Part shown: one piece after another, positions 639 through 64,000 of the stretch
Layout of the letters: each line of letters begins with the position of its first letter
Position numbering within the stretch: the first letter of the stretch is position 1
Origin: Escherichia coli
Lineage (GTDB): Bacteria; Pseudomonadota; Gammaproteobacteria; Enterobacterales; Enterobacteriaceae
Strand: one strand, 5' to 3'
Assembly (NCBI RefSeq): GCF_050320075.1
Contig: NZ_CP190018.1
Length of the DNA: 64,000 nt
Position numbers and translations under genes: made by a program
The notes under the pieces: model-generated
Seen by the model: the letters and a program-made list of their open reading frames with translations, nothing else
The model's database searches: none
What the model was told of the DNA's origin: nothing

Positions 639-3600
639 TTTCTTATTCCTCTCGATGTTCTCTGTTTCATTTTAGCTAAAATTTCACCCAAATCATCTAT
701 CCCTGCTGTTGCTGGCCCATCGGGTTTATTAATGTCTGGGAATAAATAGGGTTCTGCACAAGTATATCCTGGTGGTAATTGAGTTGTTGGCCAAGTTGTC
801 TGTGGCAGGTAATCACTTGCTGTCTTTGTCTCCATCCCTGGATACTGGGGATCATCCTGCGGCGTACAAGTCAGATTGGGTTTTACCCACTTCCTGCAAT
901 ACAGTGTGTAATCGTAAGGACTTAATGCTCTGAAGAATGTTTTGAAAACATTAGGCGCACTACTGGCCTGGTCAATAGGATATGGCAGTCTTAATTGTTT
1001 CGCTATGTCTGGCAACTTACTTGGATCGGGCGTAGGCGGTTTGTTGGGTCTCGCTCCATATCCGCCATTATTTAAGTGTCCATATTTAGATGCCAGTCCC
1101 ATTGAATCTATATACTGAACCGGATTTAACGGATACTGATAAAAATTCCATCCCCCCTTCAGTCCAATCGGATCCTGAGTGATATACCGCCCCTGCAGCG
1201 GGTCATAATAGCGGTGGCGGTTGTAATACAGGCCGGACTCCTCATCATACTGCTGACCCGGCAGGCGGATGAGCTGCTGCAGCTGGTGCGGGTTCTCTTC
1301 ATTCAGCAGGTTGCCCCATTCATCGTATTCTGCGCACCATTCTGTTGCCCCTTCCGTGCTGACAAGCGCCAGCGGCAGGCCGCGATGGTCGCAGTGGTAC
1401 AGGTGGATTTTTCGCGCCGGCGTGTACACCGGGTCCATCTGGTTTTGTATCTGCTCCACCGTCAGGCCGCACGATGCCAGCCAGCGGCGGCTTTCCTCAC
1501 TCACCCGGTCAGCCAGGATTTCACTTTCCAGCCGGTCGAGCATCTGCACCAGCACCGGCGGGAACACCACACTGCCACCGTCTTCGCCGCCGGACTGCTG
1601 AAGGGCATCCGCCAGGCTGCGGCGCTGCGTTTTCGCCAGCTCACCGGTGGCGGTTTCAACTCTGATGAGTGGCGTGAAGCTCCCCGGCTGATAAACCGTC
1701 TGGATGCGGGTTCTGTCGTTCTGTATCGTGGTCAGCCGGTCGCCGTCCCAGCCGTACCAGGTCACTTCCGGTTTCCGTGACAGCGACATCCAGCCCGTCA
1801 GGTCCCGTTCACGCCGCCATACCCGTTTTGCCACCCTGCGGCCCAGCGGGTCGTAAAGATAGCGACTTTCGACCAGCGGCTCTGCATATTGTGTCCGCGT
1901 GTAGTGCACCAGCCGGTGCCGGCTGTCGTAATGATACCGGTGAGTCCGCTCATCATCCGTGCGGATAACCCCTTCCGGGATGAGGTCGGTTTTCTCTGTC
2001 AGCCTGCCGTGACGGTCATACCGGTAAAGATAGTGCGCGTCACGGGCGATACGGTTATCCGGCCACATGCTGAGGGTGCTGTCCGGGTGCAGCTCCGGGT
2101 CGGGCAGGCGGTTGCCTGCCGGGTCCGTGGCATACGGGATGCGGATATCCAGGTTCGCTGCCGTGGTGTGGACGCCGGTCAGCCTGCCGGTGTCGCTGTA
2201 GCTGTAACTCCGGGTCTGGCGCGGGCTGCTGATGCGGATGAGTTCGCCGTTGTCGTTCCAGGTGTAATCGCGGTCATACTGCAGGCTGTTCAGGTGCTGG
2301 CTCTGTAACTGCCCGGCAGAGGTGTAAGCGGTGGTGAGTTCATAACGGCCGAAGCTGCGCAGCGTTTCCCGGTGCAGGCGGTCGCGGGTGTACTCCACCA
2401 GCGGTGTGTCGCCGAGTTTCATGCCTGACAGCCAGCCGCTGCCGTAGGTCAGCCATTCCACGGCGGGCAGGCTGTCCGGTATACAGCGGTTCGCCAGTCC
2501 CTGCGCGTTGTAAGCGTGTCTGGTTTCATGCTGCCAGAGCAGTGCTTCCGTCTGCGGGTGATGCACCGTCTGGCGCTCACCGGTCAGGCGGCCTTTCTCA
2601 TCATACCCGTAATGCACCGTCACCCGGTGGCCTTCGCTGAGATGGCTGATGCCTGTCAGCCAGCCGCGTTCGTCATACTGCCACTGCTCTGCCGGTTCAC
2701 CATTCACCGTTCGCTGTGTGATGCGGTCTGCTTCGTCATAGTGCCAGTGGGTGACCAGCCCCTCATCCTCGCTGCGGATAAGTTTGCCGGTCAGGTCGTG
2801 GTGATAACGCTGTGTGCGGCCGTCAAAGCCGGTTTCCTGTATCAGCCGGTCAAGTACATCGTAACGGAAGGTGGTGTGGCTGCCGTTTTCACTGGTCAGG
2901 CGGATGACCCGCCCGGCAGCATCGTATTCCATACTGCGCGTCAGACCGCCCTGCGTGGTACGAACGGGCTTTCCCCACGCATCGTACTGTGTCCCGTTTC
3001 TGCTGCCGTCCGGGGCAATGACGGCGGTCAGGTCACCGGCGGCGTTGTATTCATACCGCGTTTCATGGCCCTGCGTGTCTTTCACCGCAATTAACTGTCC
3101 ACGGCTGTCGTATGCGCGGTACTGACTCAGCCCTTCCTCGCGGTGCACCGCCGTCATCTGACCAAAACGGTCATGGTCATAACGGGTTACATAACCGGAA
3201 CAGTCAGTGACGGTCAGCAACTGACCGTAACGGCTCCATGTCATGGTTTTCCGGCTGCCGGTGGCATCCTCCGTTGCGCAGGGTAAGTCACTGTGTGGAT
3301 TATCATAACGGTAGCGGGTGATATCGCCGTTGTGTGCGGTTTCCTGAATCAGACGGCCGGATTCATCATATTCCCGGCGCAATTCCAGCCCGTCAGGCCC
3401 GGTGGCTGACGTTAACTGGCTGTGGTGGTTATAGTAAAATGCCGATGCCCTGCCATCCGGTGTGGTGATGCGCGTGATGAGTCCCGTCACCACATCCGGG
3501 CTGTACTCAGTCGTCCGGCCTGCGGCATCCGTCTGTGCCTTAAGCCTGCCCACCGCGTCAAACTGACTCTGCGTGACGCTGCCGTCCGCGTGTTCCTTTT

Positions 3601-4834
3601 TCACCACCCGCTTCAGCCCGCCTTCGCCCTGCGTGTGCAGCACTTCACGGCGGTCCAGACTGTCGGTGATGGTGATGCGGTCTTTCTCATACTGATACGT
3701 GTAGCTTAAGCCTGCCGGGTTTAGCTGCTCTGTCACCCGCCCGTCGCTGTCGTAACGGTAACGGATTTCTGGCCGGCCCGCGCGGTGGTGCGCCACCATC
3801 CGGCCCCGGTATTTATCATCGTAAGTAAAGCTGCGCACCTGTTTGCCACTGCGGTCATACACCGCCGCCAGTTCGCCGCGTGGCGTCCAGCCATAGCGCA
3901 CCAGCGGCGCGGCAGGTAAATTCTCCGGGTATTCCGGGTCGTGTGTCAGCCACACGGCAGACAGACGGATACCGTTGTCCCGGCCATATTCCGTGTAGTC
4001 CGGCAGGGTATCAGGAAAAGCGGACGGTTCCGTCCCGCCGGAAGAGGCCTGCTGCCGGGCCTCTTCTGCCCGCTGCGCCTGCGTGGTCAGTACCAGCCGG
4101 AAGTGACGCCCGGCACCATCCGTCACGCCGGTGATTTCGCCGCTGAATTCACCGCCAGCCTCACGGTGAAACGTCTGTGTGCGCCCGAAGCGGTCCACCA
4201 GCCCGGTCAGTACCCGGTACGGCGGCAGCGGCGCGGGCAGCACCTCATCCGCTTCCGGCACCCGCTCACACCAGCCGAGCAGCCACCACGGCCCCTGCGG
4301 ACTGTTTGTCGCCAGATAACGATGCGGACTTAAGCGGAGTTCTTCCGGCAGCGCCTGCCAGAGTGCGGTCAGCCGGTGACCTTCATCCAGTTTCAGGACA
4401 CCGCCACGCACCAGCCAGAGTGACTCGCTGCGGCTGTAACCGTCCTCACCGGGAAACAGGTGCTCAAAATACAGGCTCCTGCCGCCGTTATCACTGAGTA
4501 TCAGTGTGTTATCGCGCAGCTGTAGGCGGATATCCGCAGGCATTTTCCAGCCGGGGCCGAGGCTCCCCACCGGCGCGGGCGTTTTTGTCCGGTAACTGCT
4601 GTAGGTGCGGGAGAGGATGAACGGCAGCGGGCCGGGCAGGGCAAGGTCGGTTTCGCCGGGAAGGACCTTCGCGCCGAGCAGCGGATTGACCGGATGGCCG
4701 GACGTCACCCCGCCGGGGCACACCGAACAGGCCACGCCGGTGGGGGCACCAATACGTACCCCGGCAGAACCCTGAACAATGCTACCGCCATACTGCGTCA
4801 TGTCGCCCTGACGCGCCGCCGGTTTTCCGCTCAT
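635..4834 (-). CDS. rhsB: Rhs-family polymorphic toxin (PAAR-like N-terminus, YD-repeat core, variable C-terminal tip)
   Basis: 1399-aa ORF; N-terminal [26 protein letters not shown]-like motif; long GC-rich YD-repeat core; DPIGL core-end motif about 179 aa from C-terminus followed by AT-rich tip; locus next to nikR as for rhsB in K-12. Confidence 0.9.
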
Positions 4835-5036
4835 CGTAAAATCCTTTTCTATTATTTTAATGACAGTATCTTCATACGAAAAAGCGAAGAAAAACTTGTG
4901 GTCACAATGAATTGAAGGTTTTTAGGAATATATTTAGAACGTTACAAAAGAGAAGGTTCGGATAGGGTATTTAGAGAGGAATCAGGTGTGCTAGTGGCCC
5001 TTTGTTGATCGTTCACCAAAGGACCCAATAATAGGC

Positions 5037-7839
<2,803 letters not shown>

Positions 7840-41960: not shown

Positions 41961-42050
41961 GCGATCAGGAAGACCCTCGCGGAGAACCTGAAAGCACGAC
42001 ATTGCTCACATTGCTTCCAGTATTACTTAGCCAGCCGGGTGCTGGCTTTT
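41961..42050 (+). ncRNA. ryhB: RyhB small RNA (Fur-repressed iron-sparing sRNA)
   Basis: gcgatcaggaagaccctcgcggagaacctgaaagcacgacattgctcacattgcttccagtattacttagccagccgggtgctggcttttttttt matches RyhB as I recall it, including terminator hairpin and T-run; between yhhY and yhhX as in K-12. Confidence 0.9.
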
Positions 42051-42172
42051 TTTTTGATCTTTCGTTTTCAATTTATCCACGGGAAGTGCTTGTGTTCGTT
42101 ATGCGCACTCCAGTAGGAACCACGTCCGCTTTGCGCTAAGGTGTAAATAATCACCTTAAAAAGGACGAAATC

Positions 42173-59804: not shown

Positions 59805-62270
<2,466 letters not shown>

Positions 62271-62285
62271 GTTCGCTAAAAAACA

Positions 62286-62313
62286 GAACGGGGCCAAAAG
62301 GTCCCGTTTTTTT
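62286..62313 (+). terminator. glgP rho-independent terminator
   Basis: aacggggcc aaaa ggtcccgtt hairpin followed by tttttttt. Confidence 0.75.
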
Positions 62314-62386
62314 TCGCCTTTATTTAGGAAAAGTGTCCAGAGGGGGCGAGGGTTATCGGGGAGTATAATTTCGCCATTCAGCAAGA

Positions 62387-63904
62387 ATGGAAAGAATAAT
62401 GCAAAACGGAAAATGGATTTTGACCTCGCTGGTAATGACTTTTTTTGGCATCCCCATACTGGCGCAATTTTTGGCAGCGGTTGTTGCCATGCTGGGGGCC
62501 GGGCTTGCCGCTATTCTTGAGTTTTGCAATTTACTCTTTACACCAACAATTTATCTTCTACTCAACGTCTTTATGCTGACGCTGGGCGCATTACTGCTAT
62601 TTTTCTCTGGGCGAGTGTGGGCGGGCGATAGCGCACCAGAAAACAGAGAAATAGCCGCCTGGCGACAATGTCTTTTTTTAGTTCCCGCTTTATTAACCCT
62701 GGTTGGCTGGATAATCACGCTACATCTGGCAGATTATCAATTTCGCCAGATGGGAGCCGGTTGGTTGGCAAACCTTATGCTTCCCTGGTTGGGCGTTTTT
62801 ACAGTCTCATTCGTCGGTGGTGAGTACTGGTGGATAGTCATTATTCCCGTTGGCGCGCATATCAGTTTTTCACTGGGATACGGCTGGCCGACCAGACACC
62901 CTTTAACCGGCACCTCCGGTCTACGTTGCCGTAATTTACTTCTGTTCATTCTTCTCTTACTGGGTATTGTCGCTGGTTATCAGGCTTATTTATATAAACA
63001 GCTTAATCCCGGCGTCGGTGTGCGTGAAAATATTGATACCTGGGCCTGGCGACCCGATAAACTTAATAATCAACTGACGCCACTGCGTGGTAAACCACAA
63101 ATTCAATTTACGCAAAACTGGCCGCGACTCGATGGCGCTACGGCGGCGTACCCCATTTATGCCTCTGCATTTTATGCATTAAGTGTAATACCAGAGGATT
63201 TTCACGTTTGGGATTATCTGGATAACTCTCGTACGCAAGAAGCATATAACAAAATCGTTAACGGTGATGCCGATATTATTTTCGTGGCGCAACCTTCCGA
63301 TGGGCAAAAAAAACGCGCTGAGAAATCGGGCGTCACTTTGCTGTACACGCCATTTGCCCGTGAAGCGTTTGTTTTCATCGTCAATGCGGATAATCCGGTT
63401 AATTCCCTGACTGAACAACAAGTGCGTGACATTTTTAGTGGCGCAATTACCAACTGGCGCACGGTTGGCGGTAACGATCAGGAGATCCAGACCTGGCAAC
63501 GCCCGGAAGACTCTGGCAGCCAGACAGTGATGCAATCGCAGGTCATGAAAAATGTCCGCATGATCTCGCCGCAGGAAACCGAAGTGGCAAGCATGATGGA
63601 GGGAATGATTAAAGTCGTTGCCGAATACCGTAATACAAACAACGCAATAGGCTACACCTTCCGCTATTACGCAACACAAATGAATGCCGATAAAAATATA
63701 AAACTGCTAGCGATTAACGGTATTGCACCGACTGCAGAAAATATTCGCAATGGCAAATATCCCTATGTCGTCGATGCATTTATGGTAACGCGGGACAATA
63801 TGACGTCAGAAACACAAAAACTGGTTGAATGGTTTTTAACGCCGCAGGGGCAGAGTCTGGTGGAAGATGTGGGCTATGTGCCGCTGTATCCAACAATGAA
63901 ATAA
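62387..63904 (+). CDS. Membrane protein with N-terminal multi-TM domain and C-terminal PstS-like periplasmic binding (PBP-like) domain; intact yzgL-like gene
   Basis: 505-aa ORF; hydrophobic N-terminal ~200 aa then soluble domain; occupies the position of the short yzgL pseudogene downstream of glgP in K-12 (my recollection). Confidence 0.6.
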   Translation: MERIMQNGKWILTSLVMTFFGIPILAQFLAAVVAMLGAGLAAILEFCNLLFTPTIYLLLNVFMLTLGALLLFFSGRVWAGDSAPENREIAAWRQCLFLVPALLTLVGWIITLHLADYQFRQMGAGWLANLMLPWLGVFTVSFVGGEYWWIVIIPVGAHISFSLGYGWPTRHPLTGTSGLRCRNLLLFILLLLGIVAGYQAYLYKQLNPGVGVRENIDTWAWRPDKLNNQLTPLRGKPQIQFTQNWPRLDGATAAYPIYASAFYALSVIPEDFHVWDYLDNSRTQEAYNKIVNGDADIIFVAQPSDGQKKRAEKSGVTLLYTPFAREAFVFIVNADNPVNSLTEQQVRDIFSGAITNWRTVGGNDQEIQTWQRPEDSGSQTVMQSQVMKNVRMISPQETEVASMMEGMIKVVAEYRNTNNAIGYTFRYYATQMNADKNIKLLAINGIAPTAENIRNGKYPYVVDAFMVTRDNMTSETQKLVEWFLTPQGQSLVEDVGYVPLYPTMK

Positions 63905-63929: not shown

Positions 63930-64000
63930 ATGAATAAATTCACCTGTGTTTTACTATTAGGTACGGCGCTACTGGCGGGATGTGTCGACCGGGAAGGGTA
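63930..64000 (+). CDS. 5' end of a lipoprotein gene (partial, runs off the window)
   Basis: atgaataaattcacctgtgttttactattaggtacggcgctactggcgggatgtgtc encodes MNKFTCVLLLGTALLAGCV with lipobox LLAGC; only 23 codons visible. Confidence 0.3.
   Translation, partial: MNKFTCVLLLGTALLAGCVDREG

What the first reader, a model, noticed from the sequence alone, without database searches (positions are those of the whole stretch)
62387..63904. Intact 505-aa yzgL-like gene where K-12 has only a pseudogene remnant
Downstream of the glgP terminator lies a long intact ORF combining a multi-TM N-terminal domain with a PstS-like periplasmic binding domain, an unusual fusion. My recollection is that K-12 carries only a short yzgL pseudogene here. 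An intact version suggests an ancestral membrane sensor or binding protein of unknown ligand.
Basis: partly seen in the sequence, partly recalled or inferred. Interest (0 to 1): 0.35.

Follow-up and report, generated by a model that had tools for sequence, protein, structure and literature searches.

The report
Membrane-tethered PstS-like binding protein gene
The window carries an intact accessory E. coli gene for a phosphate-binding-type domain fused to an uncharacterised membrane domain. K-12 keeps only a deletion scar of it (yzgL); the gene is real, conserved and already annotated, but its ligand and role are unknown.

Summary
**Observation confirmed.** Window 62387-63904 (+) is an uninterrupted 505-codon ORF (RefSeq start 62396, 502 aa, WP_122989436.1), just after the glgP terminator.

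- **Architecture.** A ~200-aa six-helix membrane domain is followed by a PstS-type (PF12849) binding domain.
- **K-12 remnant.** K-12 has only yzgL, the product of a ~2.85-kb deletion between a 10-nt microhomology in this gene and in the last gene of the island.
- **Frequency.** 3346 of 5426 complete E. coli genomes hold the full-length region. 1261 hold the K-12 junction.
- **The island.** It is O-island 133 of O157:H7. Homologues sit next to glpD in Salmonella, Klebsiella, Phytobacter and other genera.
- **Selection.** All island genes are under purifying selection.
- **Binding site.** Seven of the eight PstS phosphate contacts are kept; Asp56 is Ala.
- **Membrane domain.** It has no Pfam family and no relative among solved structures. 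It recurs as a separate gene at the end of the island.
- **Context.** No ABC permease or ATPase accompanies the gene in any of the contexts examined.

**Best reading.** It is an orphan, membrane-tethered oxyanion (phosphate or phosphoester) receptor that acts through its own membrane domain. The function is inferred, not shown.

**Verdict.** Modest interest: a known, annotated gene of unknown function.

The parts
62287..62314 (+). glgP intrinsic terminator: 9-bp stem (one G-T pair), AAAA loop, T-run
   Evidence: Read directly from the sequence. glgP stops at 62270. The same hairpin is kept in K-12 (alignment A1).
62364..62369 (+). TATAAT hexamer, a possible -10 element for the gene; there is no good -35 upstream
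   Evidence: Sequence. This is a consensus match only. The tool's promoter scan proposed a weaker site at 62371-62400 (L001 6101-6130). No Pho box was found in the window. Function not shown.
62387..63904 (+). Maximal ORF of 505 codons plus stop. The start conserved among alleles, and annotated by RefSeq, is the ATG at 62396 (502 aa).
62396..63004 (+). N-terminal membrane domain, residues 1-203 (502-aa numbering): six long helices; conserved motifs GxPxLA, GxxWA, LLxPALLxL, PW, IPVGxQxxFxLGY, AxxQA
   Evidence: Hydropathy. AlphaFold2 pLDDT 88-91, pTM 0.88 for the domain alone. Alignments A3 and A4. No Pfam or NCBIfam family. No solved relative.
62608..62617 (+). Site of the K-12 deletion. GGGCGAGTG (62609-62617; GGGGCGAGTG in other alleles) recurs in the last island gene. 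K-12 yzgL joins the two copies.
   Evidence: Alignment A1; junction analysis
63005..63127 (+). Linker and N-terminal extension of the binding domain (residues 204-244). It includes the motif LTPLRGxPxxxF, shared with the lipoprotein paralogue.
63128..63901 (+). PstS-type periplasmic binding domain (residues 245-502)
   Evidence: PF12849 E = 6e-32. TIGR02136 scores 125 bits, below its cut-off of 206.6. Foldseek top hits are PstS structures 9l8j, 4gd5 and 1twy, TM-score 0.64-0.79 on the target.
63140..63145 (+). Codons for Thr249-Ala250, equivalent to PstS Thr10-Phe11 (anion contacts)
   Evidence: GAT(A/F)xxPxYA motif match read from the sequences. Thr249 is nearly invariant and Ala250 invariant in A3. 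This N-terminal motif lies outside the hhalign range and was mapped by eye.
63233..63235 (+). Codon for Thr280, equivalent to PstS Ser38
   Evidence: hhalign family profile against E. coli PstS; nearly invariant
63287..63289 (+). Codon for Ala298, which occupies the position of PstS Asp56
   Evidence: hhalign; nearly invariant Ala
63500..63520 (+). Codons for Arg369-Pro-Glu-Asp-Ser373-Gly374-Ser375, equivalent to PstS Arg135...Ser139-Gly140-Thr141
   Evidence: hhalign. Arg369, Ser373 and Ser375 are invariant and Gly374 nearly invariant among 63 homologues.
63931..64000 (+). First 70 nt of the next island gene, a 330-aa lipoprotein paralogue of the binding domain (58% identical, lipobox LLAGC). 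It runs off the end of the window.

Best explanation
**What it is.** The gene is a functional accessory gene. It encodes an inner-membrane protein whose C-terminal PstS-type domain faces the periplasm and binds a tetrahedral oxyanion. The most likely ligand is phosphate or a phosphoryl group on a small molecule or on an envelope component. The domain is held at the membrane surface by a lineage-specific six-helix domain.

**How it most likely works.** It is not the binding protein of a dedicated ABC importer. It works as a stand-alone tethered receptor. Ligand-induced closure of the binding domain is read out through its own membrane domain. That domain has no cytoplasmic output module, so it must act through contacts with other membrane proteins or by itself.

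**The K-12 state.** yzgL is a derived scar. A ~2.85-kb deletion between 10-nt repeats removed most of this gene, the middle of the island, and most of the last gene.

**Shown:** intactness, architecture, selection, conservation of the binding site, absence of transporter partners, the deletion mechanism, and homology of the last island gene to the membrane domain.

**Inferred:** periplasmic location of the binding domain, ligand class, and the receptor role.
For: **A real, selected gene**
- The ORF is intact and identical to an annotated RefSeq protein.
- dN/dS is 0.04-0.29 in the binding domain and 0.14-0.34 in the membrane domain.
- 746 homologues score E <= 1e-20, many of them 480-517 aa and full length, down to 34% identity.

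**PstS fold and anion site**
- PF12849 E = 6e-32. The structural neighbours are all phosphate-binding proteins.
- Profile alignment to E. coli PstS maps Ser38, Arg135, Ser139, Gly140 and Thr141 onto invariant or nearly invariant Thr280, Arg369, Ser373, Gly374 and Ser375. The GAT motif matches Thr10/Phe11.

**Periplasmic side**
- The paralogue next door has a lipoprotein signal.
- The loop before the last helix carries 4.5 Lys+Arg on average.

**No transporter partner**
- No permease or ATPase gene is adjacent in E. coli, other Enterobacteriaceae, Salmonella, Rahnella, Limnobaculum, or the Burkholderiaceae and Lentisphaeria MAGs examined.

**The membrane domain is more than a passive anchor**
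- It is conserved with its own motifs.
- It recurs as a separate 200-aa gene: hhalign probability 99.1%, E = 7e-19, dN/dS 0.21-0.34.
- That separate gene starts 3 nt after the stop of the lipoprotein paralogue in the window strain, and overlaps that stop in L003.

**Deletion origin of yzgL:**

Against: - No ligand has been measured.
- The position of PstS Asp56, which selects protonated phosphate over sulfate (established knowledge of PstS), is Ala here. The ligand may therefore not be orthophosphate.
- The TIGR02136 score is below the curated cut-off.
- The membrane domain has no conserved charged or catalytic residue and no cytoplasmic domain. How a signal would pass is unexplained.
- Topology is unresolved. 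A plain six-span reading puts two Lys/Arg-rich segments outside. The charge bias fits five spans plus one re-entrant or interfacial helix.
- In Lentisphaeria, Opitutales and Clostridia the same binding subfamily has other N-terminal anchors of 1 to about 4 helices. This is compatible with the membrane part being only an anchor.
- The lipoprotein paralogue has Val at +2, so by the Lol sorting rule it would go to the outer membrane. That weakens the idea that it docks on the separate inner-membrane paralogue.
- No Pho box was found.
- The OI-133 phenotype comes from a screen of whole-island deletions and has not been assigned to this gene.
Confidence: 0.45

Rival explanations
1. It is an ordinary, redundant PstS: a substrate-binding protein that delivers phosphate to the core PstCAB transporter, merely anchored to the membrane.
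For: RefSeq names it 'PstS family phosphate ABC transporter substrate-binding protein'. It has the PstS fold and most of the phosphate contacts.
Against: - It is only ~20% identical to the solved PstS proteins.
- It scores below the TIGR02136 cut-off.
- Asp56 is replaced by Ala.
- It is never next to pstCAB.
- No Pho box.
- It has a conserved multi-helix domain instead of a signal peptide.
Confidence: 0.12
2. The membrane domain is itself a small translocator. The fusion would then be a self-contained, binding-protein-dependent secondary transporter for a phosphorylated compound, with the lipoprotein plus separate membrane protein as its split version.
For: - The fused and the split arrangement occur in the same island.
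- The membrane domain has conserved motifs and purifying selection.
- A possible broken or re-entrant helix lies at residues 120-140.
Against: - No conserved charged or polar residues lie in the helices apart from one Gln near the end of helix 6.
- The domain is only ~200 aa.
- It shows no similarity to any transporter fold.
- In many strains the separate membrane gene follows cytoplasmic-looking proteins instead of the lipoprotein.
Confidence: 0.13
3. The island is an interbacterial-conflict or defence cassette array. The membrane-tethered binding proteins, the membrane-only protein and the small cytoplasmic proteins would be orphan immunity-type genes.
For: - The site is a cassette hotspot with presence/absence polymorphism and swapped middles.
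- Synonymous divergence within E. coli is 0.3-0.8 in most pairs, against 0.05-0.11 in glgP. There is also cross-clade sharing of alleles.
- In Intestinirhabdus two tandem copies follow a type VI secretion cluster with VasX_N, PAAR and TssM.
- One companion shares its N-terminus with the PRK09781 family. The member of that family at the same site in Salmonella carries the Pfam YbbD_head domain.
Against: - The anion-binding residues are strictly conserved, with dN/dS mostly near 0.1. That points to a fixed biochemical ligand rather than an arms race.
- No PADLOC match passes a meaningful threshold.
- The gene stands alone in unrelated contexts in Rahnella and Limnobaculum.
- No effector gene is adjacent in E. 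coli.
Confidence: 0.12
4. It is a decaying relic with no present function, on its way to the state seen in K-12.
For: - The island is lost or truncated in roughly 38% of complete E. coli genomes.
- The last island gene is frameshifted in the window strain itself.
Against: - Purifying selection acts on all island genes.
- The gene is full length in 62% of E. coli genomes and is conserved across genera.
Confidence: 0.1

Closest known systems
E. coli K-12 yzgL (b3427) pseudogene
   Same: Same locus between glgP and glpD, with the same terminator and upstream region. The first ~75 codons are homologous (87% nucleotide identity over 351 nt).
   Different: K-12 lacks ~2.85 kb. Its 93-codon ORF ends in an out-of-frame tail taken from the last island gene. 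The window gene is complete.
[not shown]
   Different: The window allele is ~91% identical at the DNA level. Its third gene is frameshifted.
PstS phosphate-binding proteins (PF12849 / TIGR02136; e.g. PDB 4gd5, 1twy, 9l8j; E. coli PstS)
   Same: Type II binding-protein fold. Seven of the eight phosphate-contact positions of E. coli PstS are kept or conservatively replaced.
   Different: About 20% identity to solved PstS proteins. Below the TIGR02136 cut-off. Ala at the Asp56 position. No signal peptide but a six-helix membrane domain. No pstCAB neighbours and no Pho box.
Binding proteins that signal to membrane receptors (e.g. P. aeruginosa PstS with chemoreceptor CtpL, listed in the review PMC8050422)
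   Same: A PBP_like_2 protein used for something other than feeding an ABC importer.
   Different: There the binding protein is soluble, and the receptor has a cytoplasmic signalling domain. Here the binding domain is fused to a membrane domain with no output module.
ABC importers with the binding domain fused to the permease (GlnPQ / OpuA type; from general knowledge)
   Same: A binding domain covalently joined to a membrane domain.
   Different: The membrane domain here matches no ABC permease family or fold, and no ATPase gene is nearby.

Membership tests
PstS family substrate-binding protein of the phosphate ABC transporter | Type II periplasmic binding-protein fold with a PF12849 match | tested here: met
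   PF12849 E = 6e-32, 112 bits against a cut-off of 27. The Foldseek top 30 are all phosphate-binding proteins.
PstS family substrate-binding protein of the phosphate ABC transporter | Score above the curated family cut-off (TIGR02136 or TIGR00975) | tested here: not met
   TIGR02136 scores 125.2 bits against a cut-off of 206.6. TIGR00975 gives no hit.
PstS family substrate-binding protein of the phosphate ABC transporter | The eight phosphate-contact residues of E. coli PstS (Thr10, Phe11, Ser38, Asp56, Arg135, Ser139, Gly140, Thr141) | tested here: inconclusive
   Seven are kept or conservatively replaced and are invariant or nearly invariant in the family. Asp56 is Ala298. Thr10/Phe11 were mapped by motif, outside the hhalign range.
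PstS family substrate-binding protein of the phosphate ABC transporter | Encoded with, or functionally tied to, pstC, pstA and pstB | tested here: not met
   No permease or ATPase gene is adjacent in any of the >25 genomic contexts examined. Functional coupling to the distant pst operon is not testable here.
PstS family substrate-binding protein of the phosphate ABC transporter | Secreted soluble protein or lipoprotein | tested here: not met
   A ~200-aa multi-helix domain replaces the signal peptide.
PstS family substrate-binding protein of the phosphate ABC transporter | Pho regulon control (Pho box) | tested here: not met
   No match to the Pho box consensus with up to 3 mismatches anywhere in the window. 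Induction by phosphate starvation was not tested.
Binding-domain-fused ABC importer permease | Membrane domain of the ABC permease fold, with a cognate ATPase | tested here: not met
   [not shown]
Transmembrane sensor with a binding-protein-type sensor domain (kinase, chemoreceptor, cyclase) | Cytoplasmic output domain | tested here: not met
   The protein ends with the binding domain. The cytoplasmic loops are at most ~16 residues.
yzgL locus / O-island 133 | Position between glgP and glpD, and homology to the yzgL 5' part | tested here: met
Type VI secretion immunity or orphan-immunity gene | Adjacent cognate effector, or a demonstrated protective role | tested here: inconclusive
   No effector gene is adjacent in E. 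coli. Homologues lie after tssM of a T6SS cluster in Intestinirhabdus. Protection is not testable here.

The most novel reading that the evidence does not exclude
The six-helix domain and the PstS-like domain together form a previously undescribed, self-contained membrane module, either a binding-protein-gated transporter or a sensor for a phosphorylated envelope or host-derived ligand. It exists in fused and split forms. In EHEC it would feed into control of type III secretion, which would explain the OI-133 deletion phenotype.
Probability: 0.15. Interest if true: 0.6.

Novelty: new variant of a known kind. Interest (0 to 1): 0.3.

Why it matters
- **Gaps in the reference strain.** Many E. 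coli 'pseudogenes' of K-12 are scars of accessory genes that are intact in most of the species. This one is intact in about 62% of complete genomes, and in pathogens such as O157:H7, yet it has never been studied because the laboratory strain lacks it.
- **If it binds phosphate or a phosphoester.** It would be a new way of coupling a PstS-type domain to the membrane. It would also be a candidate link between phosphate sensing and virulence regulation.
- **If not.** It remains a well-documented example of a cassette hotspot with deep allelic lineages.
- **Practical note.** yzgL is used as a neutral insertion site in K-12 (PMC8321526, PMC6010332). The analysis here supports that use, since yzgL is a deletion chimera.

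Tried and rejected
- **Pho box.** No match in the window.
- **Rfam on the leader and the gene.** One sub-threshold 'ylbH leader' hit (22.9 bits against a cut-off of 50) overlaps the glgP terminator. I treat it as chance.
- **PADLOC defence models.** Nothing meaningful.
- **Pfam and NCBIfam on the membrane domain, the 200-aa membrane protein and the 236-aa and 255-aa companions.** No family. The exception is a short N-terminal similarity of the 236-aa protein to PRK09781.
- **Solved-structure searches, by sequence and by fold, for the membrane domain.** Only generic helix bundles. The companions gave nothing by sequence.
- **AlphaFold-database fold search.** The library was not available.
- **Single-sequence exhaustive search with the membrane domain.** Only 48 representatives were found, which first suggested an Escherichia-only domain. 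The profile search with full-length proteins corrected this: the family is spread over Enterobacterales and beyond.
- **The 207-aa membrane-only protein (P0066).** I first read it as evidence for an independent membrane protein. It is more likely a truncated remnant, because a related genome (L024) has the full fusion in front of the same two downstream genes.
- **A link to the neighbouring glycerol-3-phosphate genes.** I considered it, but homologues elsewhere are not next to glp genes.

Full report
**1. The observation**

The ORF list shows one uninterrupted frame at 62387..63904 (+), 505 codons. It starts 117 nt after the glgP stop at 62270. Between the two lies a 9-bp hairpin with a T-run (62287-62314) and a TATAAT hexamer (62364-62369).

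The 1730 nt from the glgP stop to the window end are 100% identical to E. coli CFSAN061763. RefSeq annotates that protein from the second ATG (window 62396) as a 502-aa 'PstS family phosphate ABC transporter substrate-binding protein', WP_122989436.1. Residue numbers below use this 502-aa numbering.

In K-12 MG1655 the same interval holds only a 222-nt partial CDS, yzgL.

**2. What K-12 has**

I aligned K-12 with the window strain. K-12 follows the gene up to GGGGCGAGTG (window 62608-62617). It then continues with the 3' end of the last island gene, where the same 10-mer occurs. In a genome organised like the window strain, 2853 bp lie between the two copies.

The K-12 ORF is therefore a chimera: about 75 codons of this gene plus a tail read out of frame from another gene. 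The junction, as a 131-nt probe, is found at 80% coverage or more in 1261 of 5426 complete E. coli genomes. The full-length gene region is found in 3346, and 790 genomes show no match to the query at all.

**3. The island**

In the window strain the gene is followed by two more genes:
- A 330-aa lipoprotein whose binding domain is 58% identical to that of the first gene. Only its first 70 nt lie in the window.
- A 200-aa membrane protein, frameshifted in this strain.

Other E. coli strains keep the first and last genes but replace the lipoprotein. The replacement is a 255-aa protein, or a 236-aa plus a 255-aa protein, with no signal peptide and no family assignment. The lipoprotein version is present in 884 genomes. 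In strain HH45, remnants of fimbrial genes replace the first gene.

**4. Is it a working gene?**

- Between E. coli alleles, dN/dS is 0.04-0.29 in the binding domain (0.05-0.13 in most pairs) and 0.14-0.34 in the membrane domain.
- The other island genes give 0.11-0.34.
- Synonymous divergence within E. coli is 0.3-0.8 for most pairs of island alleles, against 0.05-0.11 for the adjacent glgP.
- The O157-type allele is 97% identical to that of a cryptic-clade Escherichia whose glgP differs by 9%.

The locus thus carries old allelic lineages that move between clades. G+C is 43-50% against 50-57% in the flanks.

**5. Distribution**

A single-sequence search with the membrane domain found only 48 representatives among 1.84 billion. 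A profile of full-length proteins found 746 proteins at E <= 1e-20. Many are 480-517 aa, from Salmonella enterica, Klebsiella, Phytobacter, Intestinirhabdus, Limnobaculum, Rahnella and others.

In the species-representative genome set, the fusion lies directly between glgP and glpD in Escherichia spp., Pseudocitrobacter, Superficieibacter and Phytobacter. In Klebsiella spallanzanii a sugar-acid operon is inserted after glgP. The Intestinirhabdus contig shows the two fusion genes next to glpD.
- Salmonella has it next to glpD, after an inserted sugar-acid operon.
- In Intestinirhabdus two tandem copies follow a type VI secretion cluster.
- In Rahnella it stands alone between purB and phoPQ.
- In Limnobaculum and a Burkholderiaceae MAG it sits in unrelated contexts.
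- The same binding subfamily occurs in Lentisphaeria and Opitutales MAGs with shorter multi-helix N-termini (about three or four hydrophobic segments), and in two Clostridia MAGs with one or two hydrophobic segments.

No ABC permease or ATPase gene was adjacent in any context examined.

**6. The binding domain**

- Pfam PBP_like_2 matches at E = 6e-32.
- TIGR02136 scores 125 bits, below its 206.6 cut-off.
- The AlphaFold2 model (63-sequence alignment, pLDDT 88, pTM 0.74) is closest to PstS-type proteins with about 20% identity. Examples are 9l8j, 4gd5 with bound phosphate, and 1twy.

A profile alignment to E. coli PstS, with conservation, maps the contact residues as follows:

| E. coli PstS | This protein |
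|---|---|
| Ser38 | Thr280 |
| Asp56 | Ala298 |
| Arg135 | Arg369 |
| Asp137 | Glu371 |
| Ser139 | Ser373 |
| Gly140 | Gly374 |
| Thr141 | Ser375 |
| Thr10-Phe11 | Thr249-Ala250 (mapped by the GAT(A/F)xxPxYA motif) |

All of these except Glu371 are invariant or nearly invariant in the family.

From established work on PstS, Asp56 accepts a hydrogen bond from protonated phosphate and excludes sulfate. Its replacement by Ala leaves an all-donor pocket. The ligand class is therefore a tetrahedral oxyanion, possibly a phosphoester or another anion rather than orthophosphate.

**7. The membrane domain**

AlphaFold2 on the domain alone (40 sequences) gives pLDDT 90.8 and pTM 0.88, with helices at 2-42, 49-77, 83-110, 120-140 (broken at 127), 145-165 and 173-202.
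- Foldseek gives nothing below E = 1.
- A profile search of PDB sequences gives nothing.
- There is no Pfam or NCBIfam family.

The conserved positions are prolines, glycines, aromatics and two loop arginines. The only conserved polar residue inside the helices is a Gln near the end of helix 6.

Lys+Arg counts per loop are 2.0 (N-tail), 0.45, 2.95, 0.72, 0.10 and 4.53. The last loop is clearly cytoplasmic, which puts the binding domain outside. A plain six-span model would place the N-tail and loop 2-3 outside. The charge pattern fits five spans plus one re-entrant or interfacial helix. This remains open.

The 200-aa last gene of the island is a homologue of this domain: hhalign probability 99.1%, E = 7e-19 over 171 columns. 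The island therefore contains the module twice, once fused and once as lipoprotein plus membrane protein.

**8. Interpretation**

The evidence supports a functional, membrane-tethered, PstS-like anion receptor without a dedicated transporter. I rate this reading at 0.45. The rivals and my confidence in each:
- Redundant PstS for PstCAB: 0.12.
- Self-contained binding-protein-dependent transporter: 0.13.
- Conflict or immunity cassette: 0.12.
- Relic without function: 0.10.

Hints on regulation and phenotype come only from the literature:
- yzgL, which keeps the same upstream region, is listed at -2.0 in a CpxR regulon table (PMC2731931).
- Deletion of OI-133 lowered type III secretion in a screen (PMC3378721; repeated in the review PMC10877973).

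None of these is assigned to this gene.

**9. Novelty and score**

The gene, its annotation, the K-12 pseudogene and the O-island are already on record.

New here:
- the microhomology origin of yzgL;
- the recognition that the N-terminal domain is a conserved family without known relatives, with a separate paralogue in the island;
- the absence of transporter partners across taxa;
- the Asp56-to-Ala change;
- the deep allelic structure of the hotspot.

It is a new variant of a known kind. Interest is modest (0.3).

Noticed in passing
L001 7660-9255 (continuation of the window strain beyond window 64000); L003, L004, L005: The island has a swappable middle. A lipoprotein paralogue, a 255-aa protein, or a 236-aa plus 255-aa pair lies between the fused gene and a 200-aa membrane protein. 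The last ~10 codons before the membrane gene (YDASSESSG) are shared by the lipoprotein and the 255-aa protein.
   Followed up: partly
L001 8655-9255: In the window strain the 200-aa membrane gene at the end of the island is frameshifted (RefSeq pseudogene), while the first two genes are intact.
   Followed up: partly
L001, L003, L004, L005, L015, L017, L018, L026 (island genes against glgP): Synonymous divergence between E. coli island alleles is 0.3-0.8 in most pairs, against 0.05-0.11 in the adjacent glgP. The O157-type allele is 97% identical to that of Escherichia sp. E1V33, although their glgP genes differ by 9%. This indicates old alleles exchanged between clades.
   Followed up: partly
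L009, L010, L011 (Intestinirhabdus-like contigs), L025: At the same glpD-adjacent site, two tandem membrane-fused binding proteins (504 and 536 aa) directly follow a type VI secretion cluster (VasX_N effector, DUF6708, PAAR, TssM).
   Followed up: no
L006 (E. coli HH45) 860-5080: Another variant of the locus. About 5 kb containing fragments of fimbrial subunit and chaperone genes replaces the fused gene, of which only ~60 nt of the 3' end remain. The 236-aa, 255-aa and membrane genes are intact.
   Followed up: no
L043 9564-10109 (Salmonella enterica); L005 4647-5357: Salmonella has a 181-aa PRK09781 / YbbD_head protein right after its 517-aa homologue. The first ~45 residues of the E. coli 236-aa companion match the same model (E = 1e-5). 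This suggests a shared N-terminal module with variable C-termini.
   Followed up: no
H4, E. coli O55:H7 DEC5B: An IS2 element interrupts the region in this strain. The match is split in two pieces, with an IS3-like IS2 transposase annotated under it.
   Followed up: no
L012-L014 8001-8624: In one Enterobacteriaceae lineage only the membrane domain (207 aa) is left after glgP. The same two small secreted-looking genes (166 and 140 aa) that follow the full fusion in a related genome (L024) come next. This is probably an independent truncation.
   Followed up: partly
window 62277-62381 (+): Sub-threshold Rfam hit to the Bacillus 'ylbH leader' (22.9 bits, cut-off 50). It overlaps the glgP terminator hairpin and I judge it to be chance.
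   Followed up: yes
window 41990-42054 (+): RyhB small RNA gene (Rfam RF00057, 83 bits). It is ordinary and expected in E. coli.
   Followed up: no
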